From positions 1,821,368 through 1,885,367 of the forward strand of contig JBNZDD010013605.1 of NCBI GenBank assembly GCA_050575255.1: DNA of 64,000 nt, in the 5' to 3' direction. Shown one piece after another: positions 17,601-37,100 of this stretch. Source of the DNA: Harriotta raleighana. Taxonomy: Eukaryota. Each line of letters starts with the position of its first letter. The first letter of the stretch is position 1. The notes beneath the pieces are model-generated. The model did no database searches, was not told the DNA's origin, and saw only the letters and a list, made by a program, of their open reading frames with translations. The position numbers and the translations under genes were made by a program.

Positions 17601-20530
17601 GTCAATGAGTGTTTTAGTGGATGTGAGCTCGGATTTCAAATCGATCGACTCAAACATATGTGTGGCCATGGTCTCTGGGTGAGGGCCTGAGACTGTTAGC
17701 TCTCTGGTTTCATACAGATGTGTGGCTGGGAGTACAATTTCTTCTTTCCTCTTTTATTAGGTTAGAGTCTGGCCAAGCCAGGGTGGAGAGAATCCAAAAG
17801 AAGAAATTTCAGACACTGGCCTGATTGTTATCACAGGCCTGACGTCGGGAATCGAATACACGGTTGAAATCTCGCTGCTGGACGAAGGGCAGGAAAGGGA
17901 TATCCCCATTGTTAAGAAAATTGTTACCGGTGAGCTCCTAACTTGTTAACATCCCACCGAGGAGGGGAGGGGGGTGGGGGACTGCGTTGTAAAATTTGAC
18001 TACGCGTTGGTGATCATAATCCCGAACTCCCCAGAGCCCCCTCGTGTACTACAAACAACAACAAAAACATTGCATTGATAGAGCTGCCTGCTTTCACTGT
18101 GCATTTGTTATATCGATTGACGTTGTGTGACCTCTTCACACACAGAGCTTTCCCCACCGACTGATCTGCAAGTCCAGTCCAACCCTGGCACTGGAGAAAT
18201 CACAGTCACCTGGCAAGAAACCGCCTCACCAGGTAATGGAAACATTGGCACATTTTCACTCTGGATTCATTTGAAATTGCTGTTCTATTTGCTCCCGTAC
18301 TGTGGTGATGTGTGTTGCGCTCTCTGAGAGACACTTTAACTCTTGGTTTCGTAGAGGAGTACACTTTCTATGGGAGACTTCAGAGAGGAACCTCGGAGAG
18401 ATGCGTTAACATTTTAAATGGCATTGAAATAAGTAAATCCAGGTGAATACGTCTGGATGCACTAAGACAGCAGTACAAGAGGACGAAAGTTTATAGTTGT
18501 AAAGAGCAATATCAGGACACACACTGGGTTTCGCTCAGCTACAGCGTAGTTAACAAAGGGTGGTTGAGGCCAGGGCTCGTTTACAAAATGCCTTGACTGC
18601 ATTGAGCTACTCTTAGTTGTTTTGCTGATCTGATCAGAAACTGAAAATAGAATTAATTTAATGTCCTTATAATCAAAAAAAACAAGACTGTTTAGTATTA
18701 CTGTCGGAGATTAATGTCCGTTGAACGGTATTTCCAGGAAACTCCTCCTGGGACAGGATTAGCTGTATTTATCTAGCATTTCAGTGTGTCCTAAATTTTG
18801 GAAAAGATATTTAATTTAAGTTTTTTGTTTTTTTTTGGCTTTTGAACTAATCCGTTTTTCATTGCGAAACGCCCTGTTTAGACGTGACGGGTTACCGAGT
18901 GACGTGCGCTCCCAGGGATGGTCAGCAAGGCGGGAGCACAATCGAGGAGTATGTCCAAGTGGGTCAGAACTACTGGAGCACGGAAAACCTGAGCCCCGGT
19001 GTTGAATACAACGTCAGCGTTTACACTATAAAAGGCAACTCGGAAAGTGTTCCGGTTTCCACAATAGTAACGCAAGGTAAAACAATAAAACGAGTGCCAG
19101 AGCCTCTCGCCAATTCAAGGGATTTGAGGACAGCCTCTGCGGCCACTGTTCATGTAATGGGTGAGAGTGTTTGTAATGGGTGAGGGTCCGTCTCCCGATG
19201 GTAGACTTGGGGGCACCATTGTCCACTGGTGCAGGTAGGACGCACTTTGGGGCTTCTGAATCTTTTACATCCGCTTTCTCTTAATGCCACAATATGAGCA
19301 TTTTATTTCATGCTTGAAATGCAGATGCCGATTTCCACTCACCCACCCCACCACCCCACCCACCCCACCCCCACCACCCACCCCACCCCCACCACCCCCG
19401 CCGCCAATGCTCAAATAGCCTTCATTGTCTCAACTGCACCTTCTTTCATCGAAGAGCTTTTCATTTAAACGGAGCTCCCGCTGTAGCTGTCACTAACTTG
19501 TGTGCCTCGGACTAATAGAAGGCCTTTCAAGCTCTGGGTTAAAGGTGATATGAAAAATGGCTGAAACATTTTTTTTANACCCCACCCCCACCACCCACCC
19601 CACCCCCACCACCCCCGCCGCCAATGCTCAAATAGCCTTCATTGTCTCAACTGCACCTTCTTTCATCGAAGAGCTTTTCATTTAAACGGAGCTCCCGCTG
19701 TAGCTGTCACTAACTTGTGTGCCTCGGACTAATAGAAGGCCTTTCAAGCTCTGGGTTAAAGGTGATATGAAAAATGGCTGAAACATTTTTTTTAAAAAAA
19801 GCTAAATTTAAATAATACAATAATGGATCGGATCTTAAAATTGTTAAGTTCTTAAAATTGTATCTCGTATGGTATAAAGGAGCTTTATCAGCCTCAGTCG
19901 CTGCACTTTGCAGCACGCTTTTGAAGCGATTTGGGACATCCTCCCAATGTGAAAGGCGCTGTCACAAATGTAAAGTAGTTATTATAATTTGACGTATGTT
20001 TTCTGAGTGCGATTAATCTTAAACAGGGTAAGTGCTCGGGGAGTAAAAGAAGCATTAATGCATATCACCTTTTGAACGCTTCTTCGCTGCAAATCAAATC
20101 ATTCTTAAAAGCTATCATGCTGTTCATTTCTTTCTCACCATATTTCCTCCTTGTTGCCATTTAACTGATTAGACGTCCCGCAGCTCACTGACCTCACCTT
20201 CGTCGATGTTAGCGACTCCAGCATTGGTCTCAGATGGACACCACTAAACTATTCCACCATTACTGGCTACCGCATCACGGTCATTGCCGCCGGGGAATCG
20301 GTTCCTATATTTGAAGATTTTGTGAGCTCGTCTAGAGGATATTACACTGTTTACGGACTGGAGCCCGGGATACACTACGACATCAGTGTTGTCACTCTTG
20401 TAGAGGGTGGTGAGAGTATTGCTACAACTCGACAACAGCAAACTGGTGAATTTGGAACTATTTTTGCCCGCCTGTACCCCCCCAGCGGTCCAGTGCCCGC
20501 AGTGTGATATGATTTTACTAAACTCTTGTT

Positions 20531-20599
<69 letters not shown>

Positions 20600-23500
20600 G
20601 GTTTCCCTCCAAATTTGCACGAGTCGTCGCTGCACTTTTGCCCTCAGGGGGGGTGTTTTGCCCCCAAAAAGTGACGCTCGATGACTGACCCTCAAACTAA
20701 ATGCATGTAGCATTGTATGGTATGTGATCTCCCTGTGTGGATGTGGGTGTGGGTGTGCGAGCATGAGTTGAGTTTGTGCTTGTGTGGTTTTTAGATGGCA
20801 TCGCATGATGGATTGTTCTTCCTACGAAATGGGACCTTGAAATATACTTTTACCAAAGAACACATCGGGAGCAGATTTCTGCTGACTCTAATGTTTTTTT
20901 GCGGTGGGCGGTGGGAGGAGGTGATAGTGGTGTCTATCCTCTCGTGTTAACACACACGAGGCACAAGATTTCGTCACTCTTTTTTTCTTCTTCTTCTTCT
21001 TCAAAGGAAAAACAATCCAGCATTGGAGAGTCTTGACTGTTTGTTGCATGTCAGGTGGTTTCCACGGGNGGCATCGCATGATGGATTGTTCTTCCTACGA
21101 AATGGGACCTTGAAATATACTTTTACCAAAGAACACATCGGGAGCAGATTTCTGCTGACTCTTCTGTTTTTTTGCGGTGGGCGGTGGGAGGAGGTGATGG
21201 TGGTGTCTATCCTCTCTTGTTAACACACACGAGGCACAAGATTTCGTCACTCTTTTTTTCTTCTTCTTCTTCTTCAAAGGAAAAACAATCCAGCATTGGA
21301 GAGTCTTGACTGTTTGTTGCATGTCAGGTGGTTTCCACGGGAATAACTGGAATCTTCTCTTTTAATTTCAATGAACTCCTAGAAAGACTCGGATGAGCCT
21401 GTGCAGGATACAACAACGAGTCCCAGATTTCATGCAGCGGTCAACAAATAGTCATCTTTTTTGTTACTTGGGAGACAAAATGGTCCTTTTTGCTGAAAAG
21501 AGCCATTTGCTAATTCTGCTAAAAAAAAATATATATATTTTTTAAAAGACTGGGGAATCCTGCTATAAAATTATTGCGGAATCCTGTTATAAACTTAGTG
21601 GGTATCCTGTTAAAAGACGTATGGGGATAATGCCCACTGTCAGTAATGGGAGTGCTGTCACTCTGTGGTTTATATAGCATTCACCTTGCATTCGAGAGAC
21701 CTGGGTTCAATTCCAGGCAGGCTGAAACCTTGGGCAAGTTTCCTTGCTCCATAATCCCTCAAAAAAACAATAATAAATTATTATTGGGACACTTCTGTTT
21801 GCAATTGGCTGCTGTGTTTCGCCCACATATATAGATTCACTTTACAGTATATTCAGTGTAGTGCTTCTGGGATGTCTAGAAGTCGTGAAAAGCGCTATAT
21901 CAAATGCAAGAATTATTCTTATTCTTATAAAATAATAAGGAAATCCCTCTAAACAATGGGGGTTCTCTCTGTAAACAACGAGGATGATAATAATCTTTGT
22001 GTTTGGTAAAGTGCCTTATCAGGTCAGAAAGATGTCTCAAAACCACTTCACAGAATTTACTGTGAAATTCAGTGGCTGTATTCTGCAGGCAAAAATACTC
22101 CTTATAGAATTCTCCCTATAAACCATCAGGATTCCCACATAAACACTCGGACTTCCATTATAATCTCCTTAAAAACAGAATCCCACTGCAAACGAGTAAC
22201 AAAAAAATTATAACTATTTGCAACGATCTGCAGACGTTTGTGTCTTTTGTGGGGCTCGATTCTTCTAACATATTGGGTTCCACTCGATTTCTGTGTGCTG
22301 GAAAGAGTTGAAATGTCTGCTTGCATTAACCTGGGCCATTCAGCCACGAATGCATGATTCTTGTGTACATTTTTTTTTTGGTCATGTTCTCCCCTGCGCT
22401 CTCATCTTGTATGTCGGCCTGTTCCGGAGAGAAGCTGTTCATTGACTAGCGTTCCGTTTCTCCTTTGCAGTGGTCCCCTCACCCACTGATCTGCGCTTTA
22501 CCAATGTGGGCGGGGACACGATGCGAGTCAGCTGGACACCACCCAATTCAGTTGACCTCAGCAACTTCCTGGTGACCTACTTCCCCATCAAGAATGAGGA
22601 CGATGAAACCAGAGTAACTATTTCGCCTTCAGATAGCATGGTCGTGCTGAGAGGTAAAGAGAGTTTTTTTTAAAATCTATAAATCTCCATGTGTGGGGTC
22701 GGACCAATAATTCACATGCTATTATTGGGGCCATTGTGATCATAATAATCCTTGCATTTGATATAGCGCTTTTCACATCTTCTAGATGTCTCTAAAAGCG
22801 CTTCACAGAATATACTGTAAAGTGAATTGACTGTACTATATGTATATTGTGGATGAACGGAGCAGCCAATTGCGCACAGCAGCATCCCCCAAAACAGTCA
22901 TGTGGAAGAGATGGATTTGGCTTTAGATGCTCAACTGAGGGTCTCGTATAATACACTCAGTGAGCAGGTGGAGTCTCGGTTTAAAGTCTCAACTCAGAAA
23001 ATGGCACTAATATCACTGCACTGATCCACCAGAACTGCAAGGTCTCGGGCCAGGCTGTGAGCTCAAAAGCCCCAATGTGTGACCTTGATCCCACAATGTT
23101 CTGACCTGAGAGGCCCAGAGTGCCACCGAAAGTGATGANGCCATCTTAATGTCTTAGTGGAGCTCCTGTGGCTTAATGGTTAGAGCACTCGCCTTGCAAG
23201 CATGAGACCTGTGTTCGTAATCCAGGCAGATCAGGGCGAAACCTTGGGCAAGTTTCCTTACTCCACACACATGCCTGATAATAATCCCTCCAAAAACACC
23301 ACAATAATAAAATTGGTCANACCGTTGTAATGTCTTAATGTCTTAGTGGAGCTCCTGTGGCTTAATGGTTAGAGCACTCGCCTTGCAAGCATGAGACCTG
23401 TGTTCGTAATCCAGGCAGATCAGGGCGAAACCTTGGGCAAGTTTCCTTACTCCACACACATGCCTGATAATAATCCCTCCAAAAACACCACAATAATAAA

Positions 23501-26500: not shown

Positions 26501-29500
26501 GGGAGGTTGAGGAGTTTTCAGGAATGAAGACGTTGATGGGAGCCAAGGAATATATATAGCTTCTGTCTTGTCCATGTCCATCTGCAGGAAATTTACACTC
26601 GTCTGTTGCCTTGATGTCTACCACACAAGCTGGTAGAACATCGGCCACTCTGTACTTGTAATAAATCCTCCTGTGTGAAGTGAAGATATTTTAGTTGAAA
26701 GTGATGCCTTTCATTCTATGTTCTGAGCTTTTCCAATCCCAATTAAGGTGTCCCATCCATGATCTCACATAGTCAGAATGCTTGCCCATCAAACTCCTCA
26801 TTATTTGTGTTACAGAGGAGACTTGAGAAAGACTGAATGCTTGTTGATGCAATAGGGGCTCTAGATGATCTCTTGCCTTTTCTCATAGGAGAGCGTAAGC
26901 CTGTGAGAGAGACCACGGTGCCCGGTGGAGAGTCATCCACTACCCTCCACAACCTGCGTCCTGGTACTGAGTACAAAGTAACTGTTTACGCTGTGGCTGG
27001 TCGTGGGGACAGCCCAGCATCCAGCAAACCCGTTGAGGGCATTGAGAGAACAGGTAGGCGCGAAAGCAAAAATATAACACTGATACTGTGTGCGTGGGGG
27101 TGGGGGAGGATGGGGGGAGCGCGGAGTGTGAGTGAATTGAATGAGTGAATGTGAGTGAGAGAATGAACAAAACACTAGCAAAAAATATTACAAATTAGCC
27201 CCGATTGTTACATCGGTCACGGTGTTCAGTGCAATATTAATATTGTTAAGCTCTTCCTTGACTATTGACTGCTTTACTGTTACAGAGATTGACATGCCAA
27301 CTGAACTAGAGGTCAATGAAGGACAAGGGAACAGACTGACAGTCAGATGGAGGCCCCCTATTGCCCCAATCACGGGTTACAGGATCACAAGTGTTCCTAA
27401 GGATGGCCAAGGCCCACCTATAACCAAAACAGTCCCTGCCGGTCAGTAACCACAGTCACTATTGTCAGTGGGAGGAGGAAAATCAGATGTGGAACTTAAT
27501 ACTGAATCTCTGGTTGTGGGGTTGAAGATGGGGCAAGATTCCACTCGGATATTATTTTGTCCAGAATTTGGCAAATTGTTAAAATGAAACCTTCCCATTT
27601 TTAAAATGGAATTTCCAGCAGGTCTTAAAAGCAGTTCTTGAAAAGATCAGCTTCCGAACTAATGCTGCGTTGTTCTGTGTGCACTGAAATGCTCCATAAA
27701 TAAGATGTAATCTAAAGCCAGGTGCAATTTTACCTCAGAATCTACGGTTTAGCATGGAATTCTACAGCTAACGTGAGGTATTCTGAGGGGATGGAGGAAG
27801 AGCACGGAGTTGCGGCAATTAGGATAGTTGTCTTTGTTGGAGGAGTAAACATTGCGCTGTAAGATCTGAGATGATTCCACAGATGTGGAGCTCCTGTGGC
27901 TTAGTGGTTAGAGCACTCGCCTTACAAGCGTGAGACCTGTGTTCGAATCCAGGCAGATCAGGGCGAAACCTTGGGCAAGTTTCCTTACTCCACATGCCCA
28001 ATAATAATCCCTCCAAAAAAAACCACAATAATAACACATTTTAATCTATTACTGTTTGTGGGGGACACTGCTGTACGCAATTGGCTGCTNCACATTTTAA
28101 TCTATTACTGTTTGTGGGGGAGGGGACGGACGCTGCTGTGCGCAATTGGCTGCTGCGTTCCGCCCACAAATATACAGTCAATTCACTTTACAGTATATTC
28201 TGTGAAGCGCTTTGGGACGTCAATAAGATGTGAAAAGCGCTATATCAAATGCAAGGATTATTATTATATAATAAAGCGACAATACTGATTTTAAAACATG
28301 CCTTATATTCGACCTGAAATTCCACCTTGTCTCAGCCTGTGAGGCCATCCTGTGGCAATGTGGAACATTCCTTAATTCATCCATTATTTGGAAATGCTTT
28401 TTCTGCAATTCTTTGTTTTTATTTAAAAAAAAACGTTTTCAAATTCAGCCCGAATTTAAGAATGTTTTACGAAGTTCTTAACTTTAAAAAGTCAAAAGGT
28501 GCACATTTCAGCCATTTGTATTTTCAAATGCTCAGCACTAGATGTTTAATGTATAGGGAATAGGAAAGGAAGAAACCTGGTAACAAACAATGAGTAATAA
28601 AAAAAAGTAATGATGAGTAATAGTTGTGAGTAGTATACAATAACAAGATAGTATTAAATACAATGATGTTGGCAGGAATATCTTAATATGGCATTTATTT
28701 TGGAGCAAACGCACAACTTTTAATTGCTTACTTTTATGTGAGTTTTTAAAATTAATTTCTAGAATTATTTCTTGCACAGAATTCAACTGCAGGGCTGTTA
28801 ACACGGGGACATAGCAGTGAAAGCCATGATTATGTTACGTGCCTTGTCCCTTCCAGGTCAAACCATGGTGACGTTCGAGGGCTTATTGCCAACCGTGGAG
28901 TACTTGGTTAGTGTATCTGCACTGGGTGAGAGGGGAGAGAGCCCACCCCTGACAGAAACAACCTTCACCAGTATGTATTCCCATCCTTTCCATTGATAAA
29001 TGCTGTGAAACAACCCCCTCCTGTTTGGAAAGCCATTTTGACAGACTTCTGTTCCCTTCCTGCGCCTCGCCTCTACCCTAGTTTGAACTGCAATGACTTT
29101 TAAAAAATTTTTTTTACTTGTGTGCTCTGTCCCAAGTTGGAGGAATTGACTTTAAAGAGAAGACTGTATCCTTCAGTTGTCTGGCTCCTTGTGTGTGGAA
29201 ACAAGGCAAATAGATTTGTCCTCGCGTCCATTTATTCCAACGTTTAGATGCGACGACTTTGCCACAATCTCAGTACCATGTCTGTGTAGGTTTCTCTCTT
29301 CCCCCCCCCCCACCCCCACCCCCACTCCCACCCCCACCCCCACCCCCCCCCCACCAATCCCAACTTTGCTGCTCGCTTTGTGCAATGCCTCCTTATGCTT
29401 CCCGCCCTCCAAATTAGATGCCAGCCACACTGTGCCCAGATCTGCCCTCTGAGAGGGACAGACAGTGTAAATCGCCTTGCTACCCCACCGAGCAGTTAGC

Positions 29501-31119
29501 CTATCTGCGTAGTGCATGCCGTGACTACTTCTGCTCACTTCCAAAGTCTGCCTCAATGAACAATTAGATCGCTTTGAGCTTTTCGATCTGTGCTGTCTCT
29601 CTCTCGTGCTTGTAGTGATTGGGCTGCTGTTTGGATATTTTTGTTGAAATGAGCCATGTTTATAGTGCATTGAAGAGGCTGTTCGGGGGGGGGGGGTGGG
29701 CTGGGACGTCGGCTCAAGAGGGTTTGGGCCTTCTCGCTAAGCTCTTCAATGCACTGATAAAAGAGAAAAGCACTTCAGAGCATTTGCTTAATGGCCCGGA
29801 GTCAACAGCAGCAAGGTGAGCGAGAGAGAGAATAAACGCTGCTTAACTTTGCTTCCCATTATCTTGCCTCGCAGCCATTGACCGCCCAAAAGCACTCACG
29901 TTCACAGATGTTGATGTTGATTTCATCAAAATTGCTTGGGAGAGCCCTGAGGGCCAGGTCACTAGCTACAGGGTGACCTACTCGAGCCTTGAGGATGGAA
30001 TACGTGAGGTTGTGCCAGCACCTGAGTCTGAGGATGATTCTGCTGAGCTGAAGGGTTTGAGGCCTGGCACAGAGTACATAGTGAGCGTGTATGCCCTGTA
30101 CCTTGACCAGCAAAGTTTGCCTCTGACAGGCAATCAGAGTACAGGTATGTGCTGGGGTAGTATCATTTCTGTAAGGTTATTAAACGCACAGTGGATGGCT
30201 ACCAGCAGTGCACCAGTTACTCTCCCATTGCCTTTCATGCCAAGATAATCAGATGGGAGCATTGAAAGATCAAAAAAGATAAGATATTCCTCACTTGGAT
30301 TGAAGTGGAACAGAAATGTGTCGCAGGGAGGGAGAGAGGGTGGTATGAGTGCCAAACGCTTCAGTAGATCTTTGCCCAACTCCATTTGATGTACCATTAA
30401 TACCAGGGCAATGCCTGGTAACTATGCCCAAATGTGACCAGTTGCGAGGTCTTGTTGCACACCACCTCATTCTGTCTTATTCCCTCCTGACCTACAAACG
30501 AGAATTTAGAGCTCGAACCCTAGCCTGTAATGAGACCACCGAACCCAGCACATGTAATCAACACTTTCACACTTTGTTAAAAAAAAACCCCATCAGCTCA
30601 ACAAATGTGAAGGAAAATTCCACGCTTCAAAAATTAACTGAAGTACCAAATTAAAACCATCCCTCAGGAAATCCTATTCATACCGTTCATCTTTATAACA
30701 GCCAGAGGTAACGTGAACAACTGCACAGTTGTATTCAGTCAACCTTATTGCTGCATCCATTATAATAACTATATAGACATTTAGCACTTTCACAATGTGC
30801 TCCCATTACCCGAGTAGTTTGGATCAGTCCACTTCTTTTATATACTGCTCAATTGCAATAATATTTCCGCTTGCCCTTATCTGCAAATGTATAGTCACTA
30901 CCCATTACAGTAAATGCTGTGAAAGGGCTTATTGAGACATCCCCCTAATATGAAAGGCACAATGTGAAATGTAAAGATTATTCCTATCACATGTTCGTGC
31001 AAATGTCTCGGTGACGACCCTGATTTCAGAATTGGAATAACCCAGGTCAATGTCTTAACCTCTAGAGCGTAATCCTATTGACTTCCCCATCCACTGCCTT
31101 CTTCCCCAACCCCACCACT

Positions 31120-31153
<34 letters not shown>

Positions 31154-34100
31154 CACTTCCATCTGGTCAAAATCATGGCAAGTTTCCAAGTAGGCTTGTA
31201 GTATTGAGCACGAGTGGCAAGGAAACCATAGCTTGGTAATTTGGATCAAGACATGAACATTTCTCAAACTATTTCCTTCTGAGTAAGTAGTCAATTATTA
31301 ATCCAAAAGGAAATGTCAAGCAGCTTAATCCGCAAATTTATCCCAATTGAGCTACACAACAGGAGTCTCTGGATTAATGGCTGTGCGTCACTTCTTGCAA
31401 ACTTTGAAAGAAGCCTCACTTGCTGCCTTGCCCTGCCTATCTTTGTTCTGCTTTACCCTCTCCCTGTGTGCATGTTTGCCTTCAAACCCCCTCAGGCCCT
31501 GGTGCAGAAACGTTCTCTGGTGAGAAACACTCGATATGGACTTTCACAAATCGACTGCGACCATTTGTAACCATACTCCGCGCTGGAGCGCAAAGTGTTC
31601 GCTTCGCAAACAATCCAGCGCTGATCACAGAGGCAGAGCGTTAGTTGGATACATTTTACGAGTGAGAAGTTGCCGATTCCATACAGGGAGCCCAGTAAAA
31701 ACCTAGCCCTTCCCAGATGTTGTCAGTGAATTCCAGCTGGGAGAGACGTGGCTTATTGATGCAGCCCGCCTCGATTGGAAATGTTCCTCGGGCTGCCCTT
31801 TTACTGACTTAAATTTTGATTGCTTCACCTTCCCTGCAGCCATTCCTTCCCCCACTGACCTGGAGTATGTACAGGTAACTCCAACCAGCATGACCATTAG
31901 CTGGCATGCGTCCACAGCTCAGCTGACTGGTTACCGCGTCGTGGTGACCCCGAGAGAGAAATCCGGCCCGTCCAAGGAGCTGAATGTGAGCCCGGATAAC
32001 ACCAGTGCCACCGTCTCCGGCTTGATGGNAAGTAATTCCCTGTTGTATTCCCCCATTTCATCTGTATTGGATCATTTCATTCTCATTTCTCTCACATGTT
32101 TTCTTTATTTAGCACGCTTGCCTTTCTGTTAAACATGTTATTTAAAAAAAAAGTCCAAAACAAATTTAAGAACTATTTTTGTTTCTCTTACCAACCNGAG
32201 TAATTCCCTGTTGTATTCCCCCCCATTTCACCTGTATTGGATCATTTCATTCTCATTTCTCTCGCATGTTTTCTTTATTTAGCACGCTTGCCTTTCTGTT
32301 AAACATGTTTTTTTTTTTTTAAAAAAGTCCAAAACAAATTTAAGAACTATTTTTGTTTCTCTTACCAACCCCCCCCCCCCCNNNNNNNNNNNNNNNNNNN
32401 NNNNNNNNNNNNNNNNNNNNNNNNNNNNNNNNNNNNNNNNNNNNNNNNNNNNNNNNNNNNNNNNNNNNNCCCCCCCCCCCCCATTCCACTCCCATTCGCT
32501 ACCCCACCCACCCCCCCCAACCCTTCAGGTTGCAACCAGATACAACATCTTTATCTACGCCATCAAAGACTCGCTGAGCAGCAGACCCCTGCAAGGCATT
32601 AAAGCAACGCTCGACAGTACGTGCTTCCTTTCCTCTGTTCTTCAGCCTTGATACGTGCTGGCTGCCCTCCCCCCTCCCCCCCCCTCCCCCCTCCTCTCTC
32701 TCTCCCTCCATTGCTAACCTGGCTCTTCTATATTGTCTAGACGTCAGCTCGCCCCGCAGACTCCGATTGAATGGGGTCACTGAAACCAGCATTACCTTGC
32801 ATTGGCGTGCAAAATACCATGGCATCACTGGCTTCCAGATTGATGCAGTTCCTTCTGGCAGCAGGAGCCCTGTCCAGAGAACCGTAGGCCCTGACCAGCG
32901 AGTCTACACCATTACAGGTAAACTACAAGGGCGTTCGATTGCTGTAGCGCACCCCATTCCCACCACTGTTGGAACAACAACAGCAAAATTACGCTTGTAG
33001 TTCACGTCGGGAGGACGTCCCAAAGCGCTGAAGTCAGGCCTCTTGACAGGAATGTGATGATGATAATAATAATACTTGTATTTAATGTACCAGTCTTGGA
33101 AGGATTTTACTCTGAACTGATGTGACTGTAGACTTTGTAGGCAAATTTGCCAGCCAATGTGCGCATTAGTGTCCCACAAGTAGCCATGAAGTGAAGGATA
33201 AAACATACTCATGAGTTGCAAGCAGACTCTTTTCACAGTGATTATGCTTCTTTCCTCTGTTGCTTTGAATCTTGAGAGGTTTGGGTGATGAAGGCATGTC
33301 CTCGAGGCACACCTGCCCTACCATCGTCTATTTACAGCAACAATCGATTTAACTGCTGCAAAACACTTCACAGGATTTACTGTAAAGCGCATTGCAGCAA
33401 ACTAATTTGATCACGGTAATGTCCCACAAACAGCCATGAAGTGAATGAATAAGCATTTTATCTGAGCGATTGTTGGCCAGAACGTTGGAAGAAATTCCCT
33501 TGGTTTTGAGCAGTATCATTGAATATTTTAACTTCTACCTGAATATTCTACTTGAGCAGGCATGTGGGACCTCAGTAACGAACGATATTATGTGTTTTGT
33601 GTATTACAACTTTGTACTGATTCTTTCCCCCATTTTTTTTTCCTCAGGCCTTTTGCCCGGCACCGAATATAACATCCACATTTACACTCTCAGTGGGAAT
33701 ACCCGCAGCCCACCAGCCACTATCATTGCTAAAACTGGTGAGTAAGGTGTTACAGTAATAATAATCCTTGCGTTTGATATAGCGCTTTTCACGTCTTCTA
33801 GATGTCCGAGAAGGGCTTCACAGAATATACTGGAAAATGAATTGACTGTATATTTGTGGGCAAAACACAACAGCCAGTTGCACACAGGTATGTCCTACAA
33901 ACAGTTGTGGATTGAAATGGAACAATTTATTATAAAGCATTGTGCGCTTTTATTGTAGGAAATGGGATGGGTTTTGTGTAATTTTTGGCCAGGGTTTTTC
34001 CCTCTGCAGTTCTTAAAAAGAGACTGCTTCCAATTCAACAGTTTTCCATAACTGCACAACATTAAATCTTAAGTCAAATAGTTTTTTGCCAGCCAAGACT

Positions 34101-37100
34101 GAGTGGGATCTCAGGGTTTGAAAGTCGAGTGTCTGCTTTGTCTATTTTCAGTTGTATTTCCTAAAGCTGTCGTTTTACTCCGAGTGGGTCTTGTGTGAAG
34201 AGGTAAAATCGAGTTGATATAATTATTTTCCCCTCCCCCTTAGGTATCGATTCTCCATCAAACCTGCGGTTCATCTCAGCCACAACTGATACCATCATTT
34301 TCACATGGCAGCCACCGCGAGCTCAGATCACTCGCTATATTGTCACCTATCACCCCAAGGGAGGGCGGCCCATACTTCTCCAGCCACAGCCGGTAGTGAC
34401 TGCCAGGGAAGCTGTGATCCCAGGTACACAACAGACTCACCCAAGCCTGCAAAAGTCATAGCTTCTCAGGATAGTACCAGTGATGAGTTAGGATATGACC
34501 AGGACTGAGTGAACTCGGCTATCGCTTGCGGTTGAGGCGATTGAGAGGCATTTTAACGTTATAAAAAGATTCAAAAAGAGTCTTCCATTGACCTTAATCA
34601 GTCGACTGTTTCCATTTGTTGGTTGAAACGAAGGGCATTTGATCTCATCCTTCCAGAACACCCATCCTACCTTCCTACCATTACAGCATCAAGCTGGTTC
34701 ATAGTATAAGTCCAGCTATTGTTAACTATCCTGTGTAAAGGAGAGCCTTGAGGGATGTGGAGCTTGAACCCACAGATACAGCCTTCTGTCTCGAGTTGAG
34801 GCGAGTCACCACGACCAACTGAAACGGTTACCGCAGGCGGTAACGATTCTAAACCTACAATCTCTCTGCTCCATTTTCAACAGGCCTGCAGGCTGGAACC
34901 GAGTACTACATCTACATTAAAGCAGTTCAGAATAATCTACAAAGTGAACCTCTGAGTGGAAGGAAGTTCACAGGTAAGGGATCCTTTGCTTTTCAGGGTA
35001 GAAAAGTGAAGTAAAGAGATCGAATTACTTACATCCATACAGCCTGAGCAGATCATTCATTCAATCTACGAGGAAACTACTCGTGGCCTAAAATCTGACA
35101 GCAGAAACCTCTGTTACGAGCAAATTCTTTTCAGTGTTGGAAACTCACTATTTAAGCTGATTCAAATGCTAAGATTAATTTTGATTTATATATTATATTA
35201 GTTTATGACTTTCTAAAACCCTCAACACCTCAATAGTAGAAACAGTTGTGTGTGGAAGTCCACATTAGATCCTTAAGCTGTCAAAGACCTAAAAATCCAG
35301 TTAGTCTAAGCCTCTTGAGACTCAAAATTTTGTTTAGAAATGGCGCGGAATTGTGTGGTTTAAATGAGTTTGTAATTTTGAAGCCAGTTCGTTTTTAAGA
35401 TGCGGAGATTACAAGCGGCTTCTAAATTAAGAGTCGTTTTGCTATGACTTGAGGGGCCTCCATNCGGAAGTCCACATTCACTTAGATCCTTAAGATGTCA
35501 AAGACCTAAAAATCCAGTTAGTTTAAGCCTCTTAAGACTCAAAATTTTGTTTAGAAATGGCGCGGAATTGTGTGGTTTAAATGAGTTTGTAATTTTGAAG
35601 CCAGTTCGTTTTTAAGATGCGGAGATTACAAGCGGCTTCTAAATTAAGAGTTGTTTTGCTATGACTTGAGGGGCCTCCATTCTACAGAACTCTGCTCGTG
35701 CTATCGAAGGTGAGGCAACACAGAAATACATACAGGAATACATCTAACCTTTCACCCCAGTGAGTGTAGCAGTAAAAGTATTATAAACATACTCGTGAGT
35801 TGCAAGCAGACTCTTGGGACCGTTCTTTTGAATTGAGTAGGTAATGTCGCTCTAACGTTTGAAGCTGATCTTTTCCCTTGGTATGACGTACAGACTCGTG
35901 ACCCGTTTCGGATGAATCCTTCGGAAACATTGTTCCCACTCGGCTGACCCAATTTATTTACTCTTGCGATGTGCGGATGTTTTTGCTTCTGTAACGCCTC
36001 GTGGCGATTTGCAAAGGAGTTTGCCTGCGAGAGTCGCTTCCTTGCTTTGAAAATCTTTCCTTTCTTTGAATACGGCTAGCTGTCATGTGCTTTGTACAGC
36101 GATATTCAACGGCTTGCAAAGGACACAAATGGGCAGAAATTCCCTTCAGCAATAGGCGTAATGCGTTTGGCAATGCACTGCTCGTAATGGGGGAATCTTA
36201 TTGGTGCCAGCCATTCGTTGGCAGAGTTGCCTCGCATAACCTTGTTTGGAATTTCCTCAGTTAATGTGCTAGAAAGTTACATTTGGATGTTGATAACTCG
36301 ATAGCTACTATCAACTGATTGCTCTGCTTTTGGCCAACCCTGAAACAATGGTTGTGTTTATTAATGCTGCTGCCCGCAGTTCCTAACAGCCCGTGCTTCT
36401 CTTCTGCTTCTCAAGCCTCTACTCCACAGCTTGCCACCCTCTCCCCATACTTAAACCCTGACCGAGTGGACATTCTGCCCTTCTACGATCAGTCAGAGCT
36501 TATCTCCAACCCCAGATATGACGAGAGGAATCATGTACCAATTACAGGAATAACCGACCAGGGTTTGGGTATAGACGGTAAGCGGCCGCCGTTAGTTGAC
36601 CAAGGGACAGATCAACATCGGCCGACGCAACCGGAAAACCGATACAACACTGAGCTAGGTATTCTGGATAGAGGGACCACCTCAGGCCAGCCGCCGATTA
36701 CCAATCACCATCTGACGGATCTTCCGGGGGTGAATCATAAGCCTTATCCACCGAGGGTGACCGTGCAGGGAAGAGTGGAGGAAACGGGGCAGAATCCTCC
36801 GCCCCACCGTGTGTTAGTAGTGGATGAGACTCTCCCTCCCCTCCCACTGCGACCCGCACATAACCAAACGAGTGAGGAGGCACAGCAGTCGAGAACTGTC
36901 ATCTCCTGGAAGCCGGTCACTGTCGCTTCCGGATACATCTTGTCCTGCCATCCCGTGGGCCGGGAAGAAGATTTGTACCAGGTAATTCAACTTCGAACCA
37001 ATTAGAACTAACCACCCGTCCTTATGCGCAATGTAATATACAAAAGCTGAAGCTAGAATTGTTTGCTTGTTTGTTGAGTAAGGCATTAGTTGTGCTCTAA

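What the first reader, a model, noticed from the sequence alone, without database searches (positions are those of the whole stretch)
31496..31519. Candidate unannotated 24-nt frame-preserving FN1 microexon between EDA and III-12
Seen: a ~75-nt pyrimidine-rich tract with no AG (31418-31493) ends in ctcag. It is followed by 24 nt (GCCCTGGTGCAGAAACGTTCTCTG) and a good donor |gtgaga. The unit is phase 1-1 like the module boundaries around it, has no stop, and would insert (G/S)PGAETFS between III-11/EDA and III-12. The tract holds an RBFOX hexamer TGCATG (31469-31474) and several TGC triplets near the acceptor. Established: UGC motifs near the 3' splice site mark SRRM3/4-regulated microexons, and the standard vertebrate FN1 model has only EDA, EDB and V as alternative segments. 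Inference: this may be a fourth alternatively spliced FN1 segment, or a decoy exon that regulates EDA.
Basis: partly seen in the sequence, partly recalled or inferred. Interest (0 to 1): 0.72.

Follow-up and report, generated by a model that had tools for sequence, protein, structure and literature searches.

The report
Cryptic microexon in chimaera fibronectin
An intron of a chimaera's fibronectin gene holds a 24-base stretch with unusually good exon-like splice signals, but no shark, ray or elephant-shark fibronectin we examined carries the extra eight residues, so it is likely a normally skipped look-alike rather than a fourth optional segment.

Summary
The sequence is as described: AG, 24 nt (31496-31519), GTGAGA, behind 80 AG-free, 76% pyrimidine bases, in the EDA/III-12 intron of a chimaera FN1. 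Its splice sites score like this gene's real ones. A neural-microexon filter, set after the fact on the candidate and two control units in DCTN2, found no in-frame hit in 1.19 Mb of this genome; 12 of 300 simulated FN1 intron sets gave one. So the signal is unusual, not unique.

Against a fourth FN1 segment: none of 71 FN1 proteins from 19 cartilaginous fishes, including 15 Callorhinchus milii entries, has an insert there, and 302 of 305 measurable vertebrate junctions are standard. The 7-8-residue linkers of two teleost proteins are unrelated in sequence. Inclusion in RNA and conservation of the intron DNA remain untested.

Best reading (0.6): a lineage-restricted cryptic microexon, normally skipped. 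A regulated chimaera-specific linker exon, perhaps paired with a weaker 15-nt unit I found at 30895, stays possible (about 0.12).

The parts
28857..28970 (+). FN1 exon III-11b (constitutive, upstream)
   Evidence: boundaries fitted to C. milii isoform X1
29875..30144 (+). EDA (EIIIA) cassette exon, 270 nt
   Evidence: 95.5% amino-acid identity to C. milii EDA; boundaries
   Evidence: acceptor 1.5, donor 6.2, AG-to-AG 67, TGC at -13 and -23; unverified
31414..31493 (+). AG-free pyrimidine tract with YTNAY branch-point-like motifs (-78, -41), a CTCTC run, 6 YGCY and 7 TGC
31469..31474 (+). TGCATG (RBFOX-type hexamer), 27 nt before the candidate and 1.3 kb after EDA
   Evidence: 22 such hexamers on this strand of the 64-kb window
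31496..31519 (+). candidate 24-nt microexon (AG...GTGAGA), with an internal in-frame acceptor at 31508 that would give 12 nt
   Evidence: inclusion in RNA not shown
31840..32027 (+). FN1 exon III-12a (constitutive, downstream)
   Evidence: 87% amino-acid identity to C. milii; matches III-12 in PDB 6xax, 6xay and 1fnh

Best explanation
This 24-base unit in the EDA/III-12 intron of a chimaera fibronectin gene has good splice signals but is likely a lineage-restricted cryptic microexon that is normally skipped and adds nothing to the functional protein. Shown: the signals, their rarity, and the absence of the peptide from all related FN1 proteins examined. Inferred mechanism: exons this short usually need SRRM3/4, which the hepatocytes and mesenchymal cells that make most fibronectin are not expected to express (established for mammals, assumed for chimaeras). 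The UGCAUG, YGCY and CU-rich motifs lie upstream of the unit, over its pyrimidine tract, where RBFOX-, MBNL- and PTBP-type binding would be expected to block rather than help it. If FN1 is little expressed in SRRM3/4-positive cells, such a unit can arise by drift and is not purged; any rare inclusion keeps the frame and only lengthens a domain linker.
For: 0 of 71 FN1 proteins from 19 chondrichthyan species has an insert before III-12 (70 standard spacing, 1 two residues shorter), including 15 of the 16 C. milii cluster members. 302 of 305 measurable vertebrate junctions are standard. The same models resolve EDA, EDB and V variants, 1-residue variants in three species and a 7-residue variant in axolotl. 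A chance hit per FN1-sized intron set is not negligible: 12 of 300 Markov simulations at AG-to-AG >= 70 and 28 of 300 at >= 60; 5 in-frame units with both sites as strong occur in 1.19 Mb. Unused decoy exons outnumber real ones, and cryptic microexons with and without UGC are a catalogued class (passages of PMC3098058, and 10.1101/2024.09.17.613571). The acceptor (8.6) is stronger than those of the two DCTN2 control units (1.9, 5.3), whereas SRRM3/4 targets typically have a weak 3' site.
Against: The filter that keeps both DCTN2 control units and the candidate finds 0 in-frame and 2 out-of-frame units in 1.19 Mb, so the full architecture is rare. A second in-frame unit at 30895 passes at AG-to-AG >= 60 in the same 1.7-kb intron; shuffles of that intron give one unit in 7 of 3000 and never two. 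The comparison proteins are mostly automated models of other species, which can miss tissue-restricted microexons, and only 120 of 1214 hits were listed. The repression by RBFOX, MBNL or PTBP is inferred from motif position alone.
Confidence: 0.6

Rival explanations
1. A genuine, regulated microexon restricted to chimaeras (SRRM3/4-type or another tissue programme), perhaps used in tandem with the 15-nt unit at 30895. It would add an 8- or 13-residue spacer between III-11/EDA and III-12 and loosen that hinge.
For: Long AG-free zone, displaced pyrimidine tract, CTCTC followed by TGC at -27 and -19, and a good donor match the architecture described in passages of 10.1101/2024.09.17.613571, PMC12871342 and PMC8797185. 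It passes the control-derived filter with 0 in-frame hits in 1.19 Mb, and the only two FN1 hits at AG-to-AG >= 40 are both in this intron. The insert falls at a domain boundary, and two teleost fibronectins carry 7-8 extra residues at the same junction.
Against: Absent from all 15 listed C. milii entries and 56 elasmobranch entries. Thresholds were set after seeing the candidate and only two control units. The second unit barely passes (acceptor 1.5, donor 6.2). FN1 is not a typical neuronal transcript (recalled).
Confidence: 0.12
2. The tract is an intronic regulatory element for EDA (an RBFOX/MBNL-type enhancer downstream of the cassette, or a decoy that engages U1/U2AF without being spliced); the 24 nt are incidental.
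For: In mouse endothelium Rbfox2 loss lowers EIIIA inclusion modestly, 50% versus 60% (passages of PMC5771670). The tract has TGCATG and 6 YGCY; 9 of 14490 background 80-nt tiles have 6 or more.
Against: It lies 1.3 kb from EDA. Two TGCATG in the 2.6 kb of introns flanking EDA against about 0.9 expected from the window's density. Sliding windows with 5 or more YGCY occur at 15 places in this gene. No conservation data.
Confidence: 0.13
3. A conserved fourth alternative segment of vertebrate FN1 that annotation has missed.
For: Two teleost proteins have +7 and +8 residues at this junction.
Against: Those linkers differ in sequence, recur in each tandem EDA-like repeat of the herring protein, and both proteins also have a longer III-10/III-11 linker. 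The other 303 measurable junctions have no insert. No paper listing pointed to such a segment.
Confidence: 0.03
4. The strong acceptor is used at low level with a downstream donor or by retention to 31840, giving a stop-containing, decay-prone transcript.
For: Reading on from 31496 meets a stop just after 31641, and 31496-31839 is 344 nt, out of frame.
Against: A good donor lies 24 nt after the acceptor. No RNA evidence.
Confidence: 0.05

Closest known systems
Cryptic (low-PSI) microexons and pseudoexons, as defined from VastDB in 10.1101/2024.09.17.613571 (passages) and decoy exons in PMC3098058 (passages)
   Same: Intronic unit with good acceptor and donor, with UGC/UCUC motifs, absent from annotated isoforms of relatives
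   Different: Low inclusion has not been measured here; it is inferred from absence in other species' proteins
SRRM3/4 (eMIC)-dependent neural microexons; control here: two units in the chimaera DCTN2 gene (G000:C13257:78395 and 78492)
   Same: 30 nt or shorter, 3n, AG-to-AG distance about 80, TGC within 25 nt of the acceptor, good donor
   Different: Stronger acceptor than both controls; nearest TGC at -19 against -14 and -10; host is a secreted matrix gene; no protein-level conservation in 19 cartilaginous fishes
FN1 alternative segments EDA, EDB and V/IIICS (passages of PMC3182887 and PMC4422808)
   Same: Same gene; in-frame unit at a type III module boundary
   Different: EDA, EDB and V are seen as alternative across shark, ray and chimaera models and are described in lamprey; this unit appears in none and would encode a linker, not a domain

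Membership tests
SRRM3/4-dependent microexon | 30 nt or shorter, frame-preserving | tested here: met
   24 nt, no stop
SRRM3/4-dependent microexon | Long AG exclusion zone, extended pyrimidine tract, distant branch point | tested here: met
   82 against median 41.5; YTNAY at -78 and -41; branch point by consensus only
SRRM3/4-dependent microexon | UGC near the acceptor with UCUC upstream | tested here: met
   TGC at -19 and -27, CTCTC upstream; 20 of 40 ordinary acceptors also have a TGC there
SRRM3/4-dependent microexon | Strong 5' site and relatively weak 3' site | tested here: inconclusive
   Donor above 23 of 39, but acceptor above 26 of 40 real sites, on a small gene-trained matrix; MaxEntScan not available
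SRRM3/4-dependent microexon | High conservation across vertebrates | tested here: not met
   At protein level: 0 of 71 chondrichthyan and no matching insert in 305 vertebrate junctions; intron DNA not testable
SRRM3/4-dependent microexon | Neural or endocrine inclusion that depends on SRRM3/4 | not testable with these tools
   Needs raw reads or a minigene
Alternative FN1 segment (EDA/EDB/V class) | Present in some annotated isoforms and absent in others, across species | tested here: not met
   Isoform differences in C. milii and 23 other isoform groups show EDA, EDB, V and a few species-specific changes, none at this junction
Cryptic microexon / pseudoexon | Exon-like signals inside an intron | tested here: met
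Cryptic microexon / pseudoexon | Inclusion below 10% in nearly all tissues | not testable with these tools
   Needs chimaerid raw reads; only indirect support
Recursive splice site | Acceptor AG followed directly by a donor GT | tested here: not met
   AG is followed by GCCCTG

The most novel reading that the evidence does not exclude
Chimaeras evolved a tissue-regulated pair of microexons (15 and 24 nt) in the EDA/III-12 intron of FN1: a fourth alternatively spliced region that inserts a flexible 8-13-residue spacer in front of the heparin-binding III-12-14 modules and so tunes fibronectin conformation by linker length instead of by whole domains.
Probability: 0.1. Interest if true: 0.6.

Novelty: new member of a known kind. 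Interest (0 to 1): 0.22.

Why it matters
If the best reading holds, it is an ordinary cryptic exon and a reminder that a neural-microexon sequence code also appears in non-neural genes. If the novel case holds, it would break the three-region model of FN1 splicing (EDA, EDB, V) described from lamprey to mammals, and put a microexon programme on a secreted matrix protein at a hinge whose flexibility is thought to affect matrix assembly. One look at chimaera junction reads decides it.

Tried and rejected
RNA: no RNA holder listed (4 runs, RNA only by guess, each holding 0.06-0.07 of the words). Laying all 4 on 31170-32025 at 90% likeness laid nothing. This is no evidence either way.

Protein searches for transcript-derived fragments: III-12a against longer proteins gave 1 hit, which starts after the junction. 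C. milii III-11/III-12 against shorter proteins gave 15 hits, with no new chondrichthyan fragment across the junction. No protein identical to the window's exons turned up, so 'unannotated' may only mean that this species has no models in the collection.

Metagenome scan with III-12a: 288 pattern matches, none confirmed. No look-alike windows in the scan's notes.

Repeat or duplicate origin: single copy in the own genome; these searches skip simple repeats. RNA structure: z = 0.21 for 31400-31560, no signal. YGCY cluster as evidence: rare in fixed tiles, common in sliding windows of this gene, so set aside. Recursive site: rejected, AG is followed by GC. Teleost linkers as orthologues: rejected.

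A TOG-domain search meant to find CKAP5 as a control hit another compact locus and was dropped; DCTN2 was used instead. MicroExonator supplements gave no hit for Fn1 but none for two control gene names either, so they are uninformative. The 2019 paper on the origin of neural microexons is not held; bioRxiv supplements and VastDB, which may list C. milii events, could not be seen. PMC8911335 passages added nothing.

Matrix caveats: one donor was corrected by hand, the last intron was left out, and the V-region acceptor in the training set is probably misplaced by 36 nt.

Full report
Host gene. The window holds most of a fibronectin gene on the + strand. Forty-two exons were placed against C. 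milii isoform X1. EDA is 95.5% and III-12a 87% identical in amino acids to C. milii, and at most 78% and 84% to the sharks and rays examined, so the genome is a chimaera other than C. milii (inference). The candidate lies in the 1695-nt intron between EDA (29875-30144) and III-12a (from 31840).

Observation. The unit would add (G/S)PGAETFS exactly at the boundary where III-12 begins in the solved three-module structures 6xax and 6xay, so it would lengthen a linker and not break a fold (inference). An internal acceptor at 31508 offers an in-frame 12-nt version. The stretch is single-copy and shows no special RNA fold.

How unusual is it? On matrices from this gene's own sites the donor beats 23 of 39 and the acceptor 26 of 40 real sites; the AG-to-AG distance of 82 is twice the median. 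In 1.19 Mb of the same contig (60 stretches, both strands, unannotated) no in-frame unit of 30 nt or less equals it on all three measures, 5 equal it on the two splice sites, and 32 pass loose criteria; this is 0 (upper bound 0.12), 0.16 and 1.0 expected in FN1's introns. For a less self-serving threshold I located DCTN2, which I recall has tandem 9- and 6-nt neural microexons in mammals. A scan found a 9-nt and a 6-nt unit in the expected intron, with AG-to-AG distances of 84 and 81 and TGC at -14 and -10; their use in this species is not shown. A filter that keeps both (distance >= 70, TGC within 25 nt, donor >= 6, pyrimidines >= 60%) keeps the FN1 candidate and finds 0 in-frame and 2 out-of-frame units in the background. 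Fourth-order Markov simulations of FN1's introns give a hit in 12 of 300 runs. The thresholds were set knowing the candidate, and the first stage reads very many windows, so a few-percent event per gene is expected to surface. At distance >= 60 a second, weaker in-frame unit appears in the same intron (30895-30909, 15 nt); 1 of 300 simulations gave two units in the gene at that threshold, and 0 of 3000 shuffles of this intron did. This is the best evidence against pure chance.

Is it used? Inclusion in RNA remains untested. At protein level I collected FN1 sequences through (one search listed 120 of 1214 hits). Of 331 examined, 305 could be measured at the junction before III-12 and 26 could not (fragments, divergent lamprey and other entries); the seven full-length lamprey entries show a standard junction in the printouts. 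302 have the standard spacing. All 71 entries from 19 cartilaginous fishes lack an insert, including 15 of 16 C. milii cluster members; no stored protein has PGAETF or GAETFS. The same models resolve EDA, EDB, V-region variants and changes as small as 1 and 7 residues, though those look like splice-site shifts and not microexons. The two exceptions, herring fn1b (+7) and a fathead minnow protein (+8), have unrelated linker sequences and also longer III-10/III-11 linkers. They show that such a spacer can be tolerated, not that it is homologous. Limits: these are mostly automated models of other species, and intron DNA of relatives was not available.

Mechanism. Passages of 10.1101/2024.09.17.613571 (section 10 read whole), PMC12871342 and PMC8797185 with its preprint describe SRRM3/4 targets: long AG-free zone, displaced pyrimidine tract, UCUC then UGC, weak 3' site, and repression by PTBP1 outside neurons. 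The candidate fits except for its stronger acceptor. The first of these papers also defines cryptic microexons with and without UGC. Plasma fibronectin is made by hepatocytes (passages of PMC3182887); that FN1-producing cells lack SRRM3/4, and that RBFOX or MBNL bound upstream of an exon represses it, is recalled knowledge applied by inference. The likely outcome is skipping where FN1 is made, with no selection for or against the unit (0.6). A regulated chimaera-specific exon gets 0.12, an EDA regulatory element 0.13 (Rbfox2 affects EIIIA only modestly in mouse, passages of PMC5771670; QKI acts upstream of EDA, passages of PMC8464043), a conserved missed segment 0.03 and a poison acceptor 0.05. 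These are judgements, not computed values.

Comparison with what is known. EDA, EDB and IIICS are described already in lamprey (passages of PMC4422808). Literature searches (listings only) showed no report of an FN1 microexon; subscription papers, VastDB and bioRxiv supplements were not searched, and one 2026 preprint using C. milii data does not mention fibronectin in its main text. The scan's own notes hold a skate EDA finding and real microexons in other genes of this genome, but nothing on this unit.

Verdict. Observation confirmed; interpretation only partly supported. Most likely a cryptic microexon, a new member of a known kind; interest 0.22. The open possibility of a chimaera-specific linker exon pair (about 0.1, interest 0.6 if true) can be settled with junction reads and one intron alignment.

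Noticed in passing
window 30895-30909: Second in-frame microexon-like unit (15 nt) in the same intron, with a 67-nt AG-to-AG distance and TGC at -13 and -23 but weak splice sites.
   Followed up: partly
window 20446-22470 (intron after EDB): Four TGCATG hexamers (20702, 21045, 21318, 22351) against about 0.7 expected; two appear to be copies in a duplicated segment. Recalls the RBFOX sites downstream of mammalian EDB.
   Followed up: no
window about 20800-21360, 32029-32300 and other single-N sites: Near-identical segments repeated on either side of single N bases, likely assembly artefacts; one N replaces the +2 base of the III-12a donor at 32029.
   Followed up: partly
G000:C13257:78395-78403 and 78492-78497 (L064): Two microexon-like units (9 and 6 nt) with long AG-free zones and TGC motifs in a DCTN2 intron; used as controls, not verified by RNA.
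   Followed up: partly
proteins P0181 (herring fn1b) and P0369 (fathead minnow): Linkers 7-8 residues longer after EDA-like modules and longer III-10/III-11 linkers; herring has tandem 96-residue EDA-like repeats. Whether the linker is a separate exon is unknown.
   Followed up: partly
proteins P0349 vs P0173 (axolotl): A 7-residue variant directly after EDB, probably a downstream donor shift.
   Followed up: no
   Followed up: partly
window 36380-36416: The V region has two nearby acceptors; the AAG before 36416 matches the C. milii V start better than the CAG before 36380.
   Followed up: no
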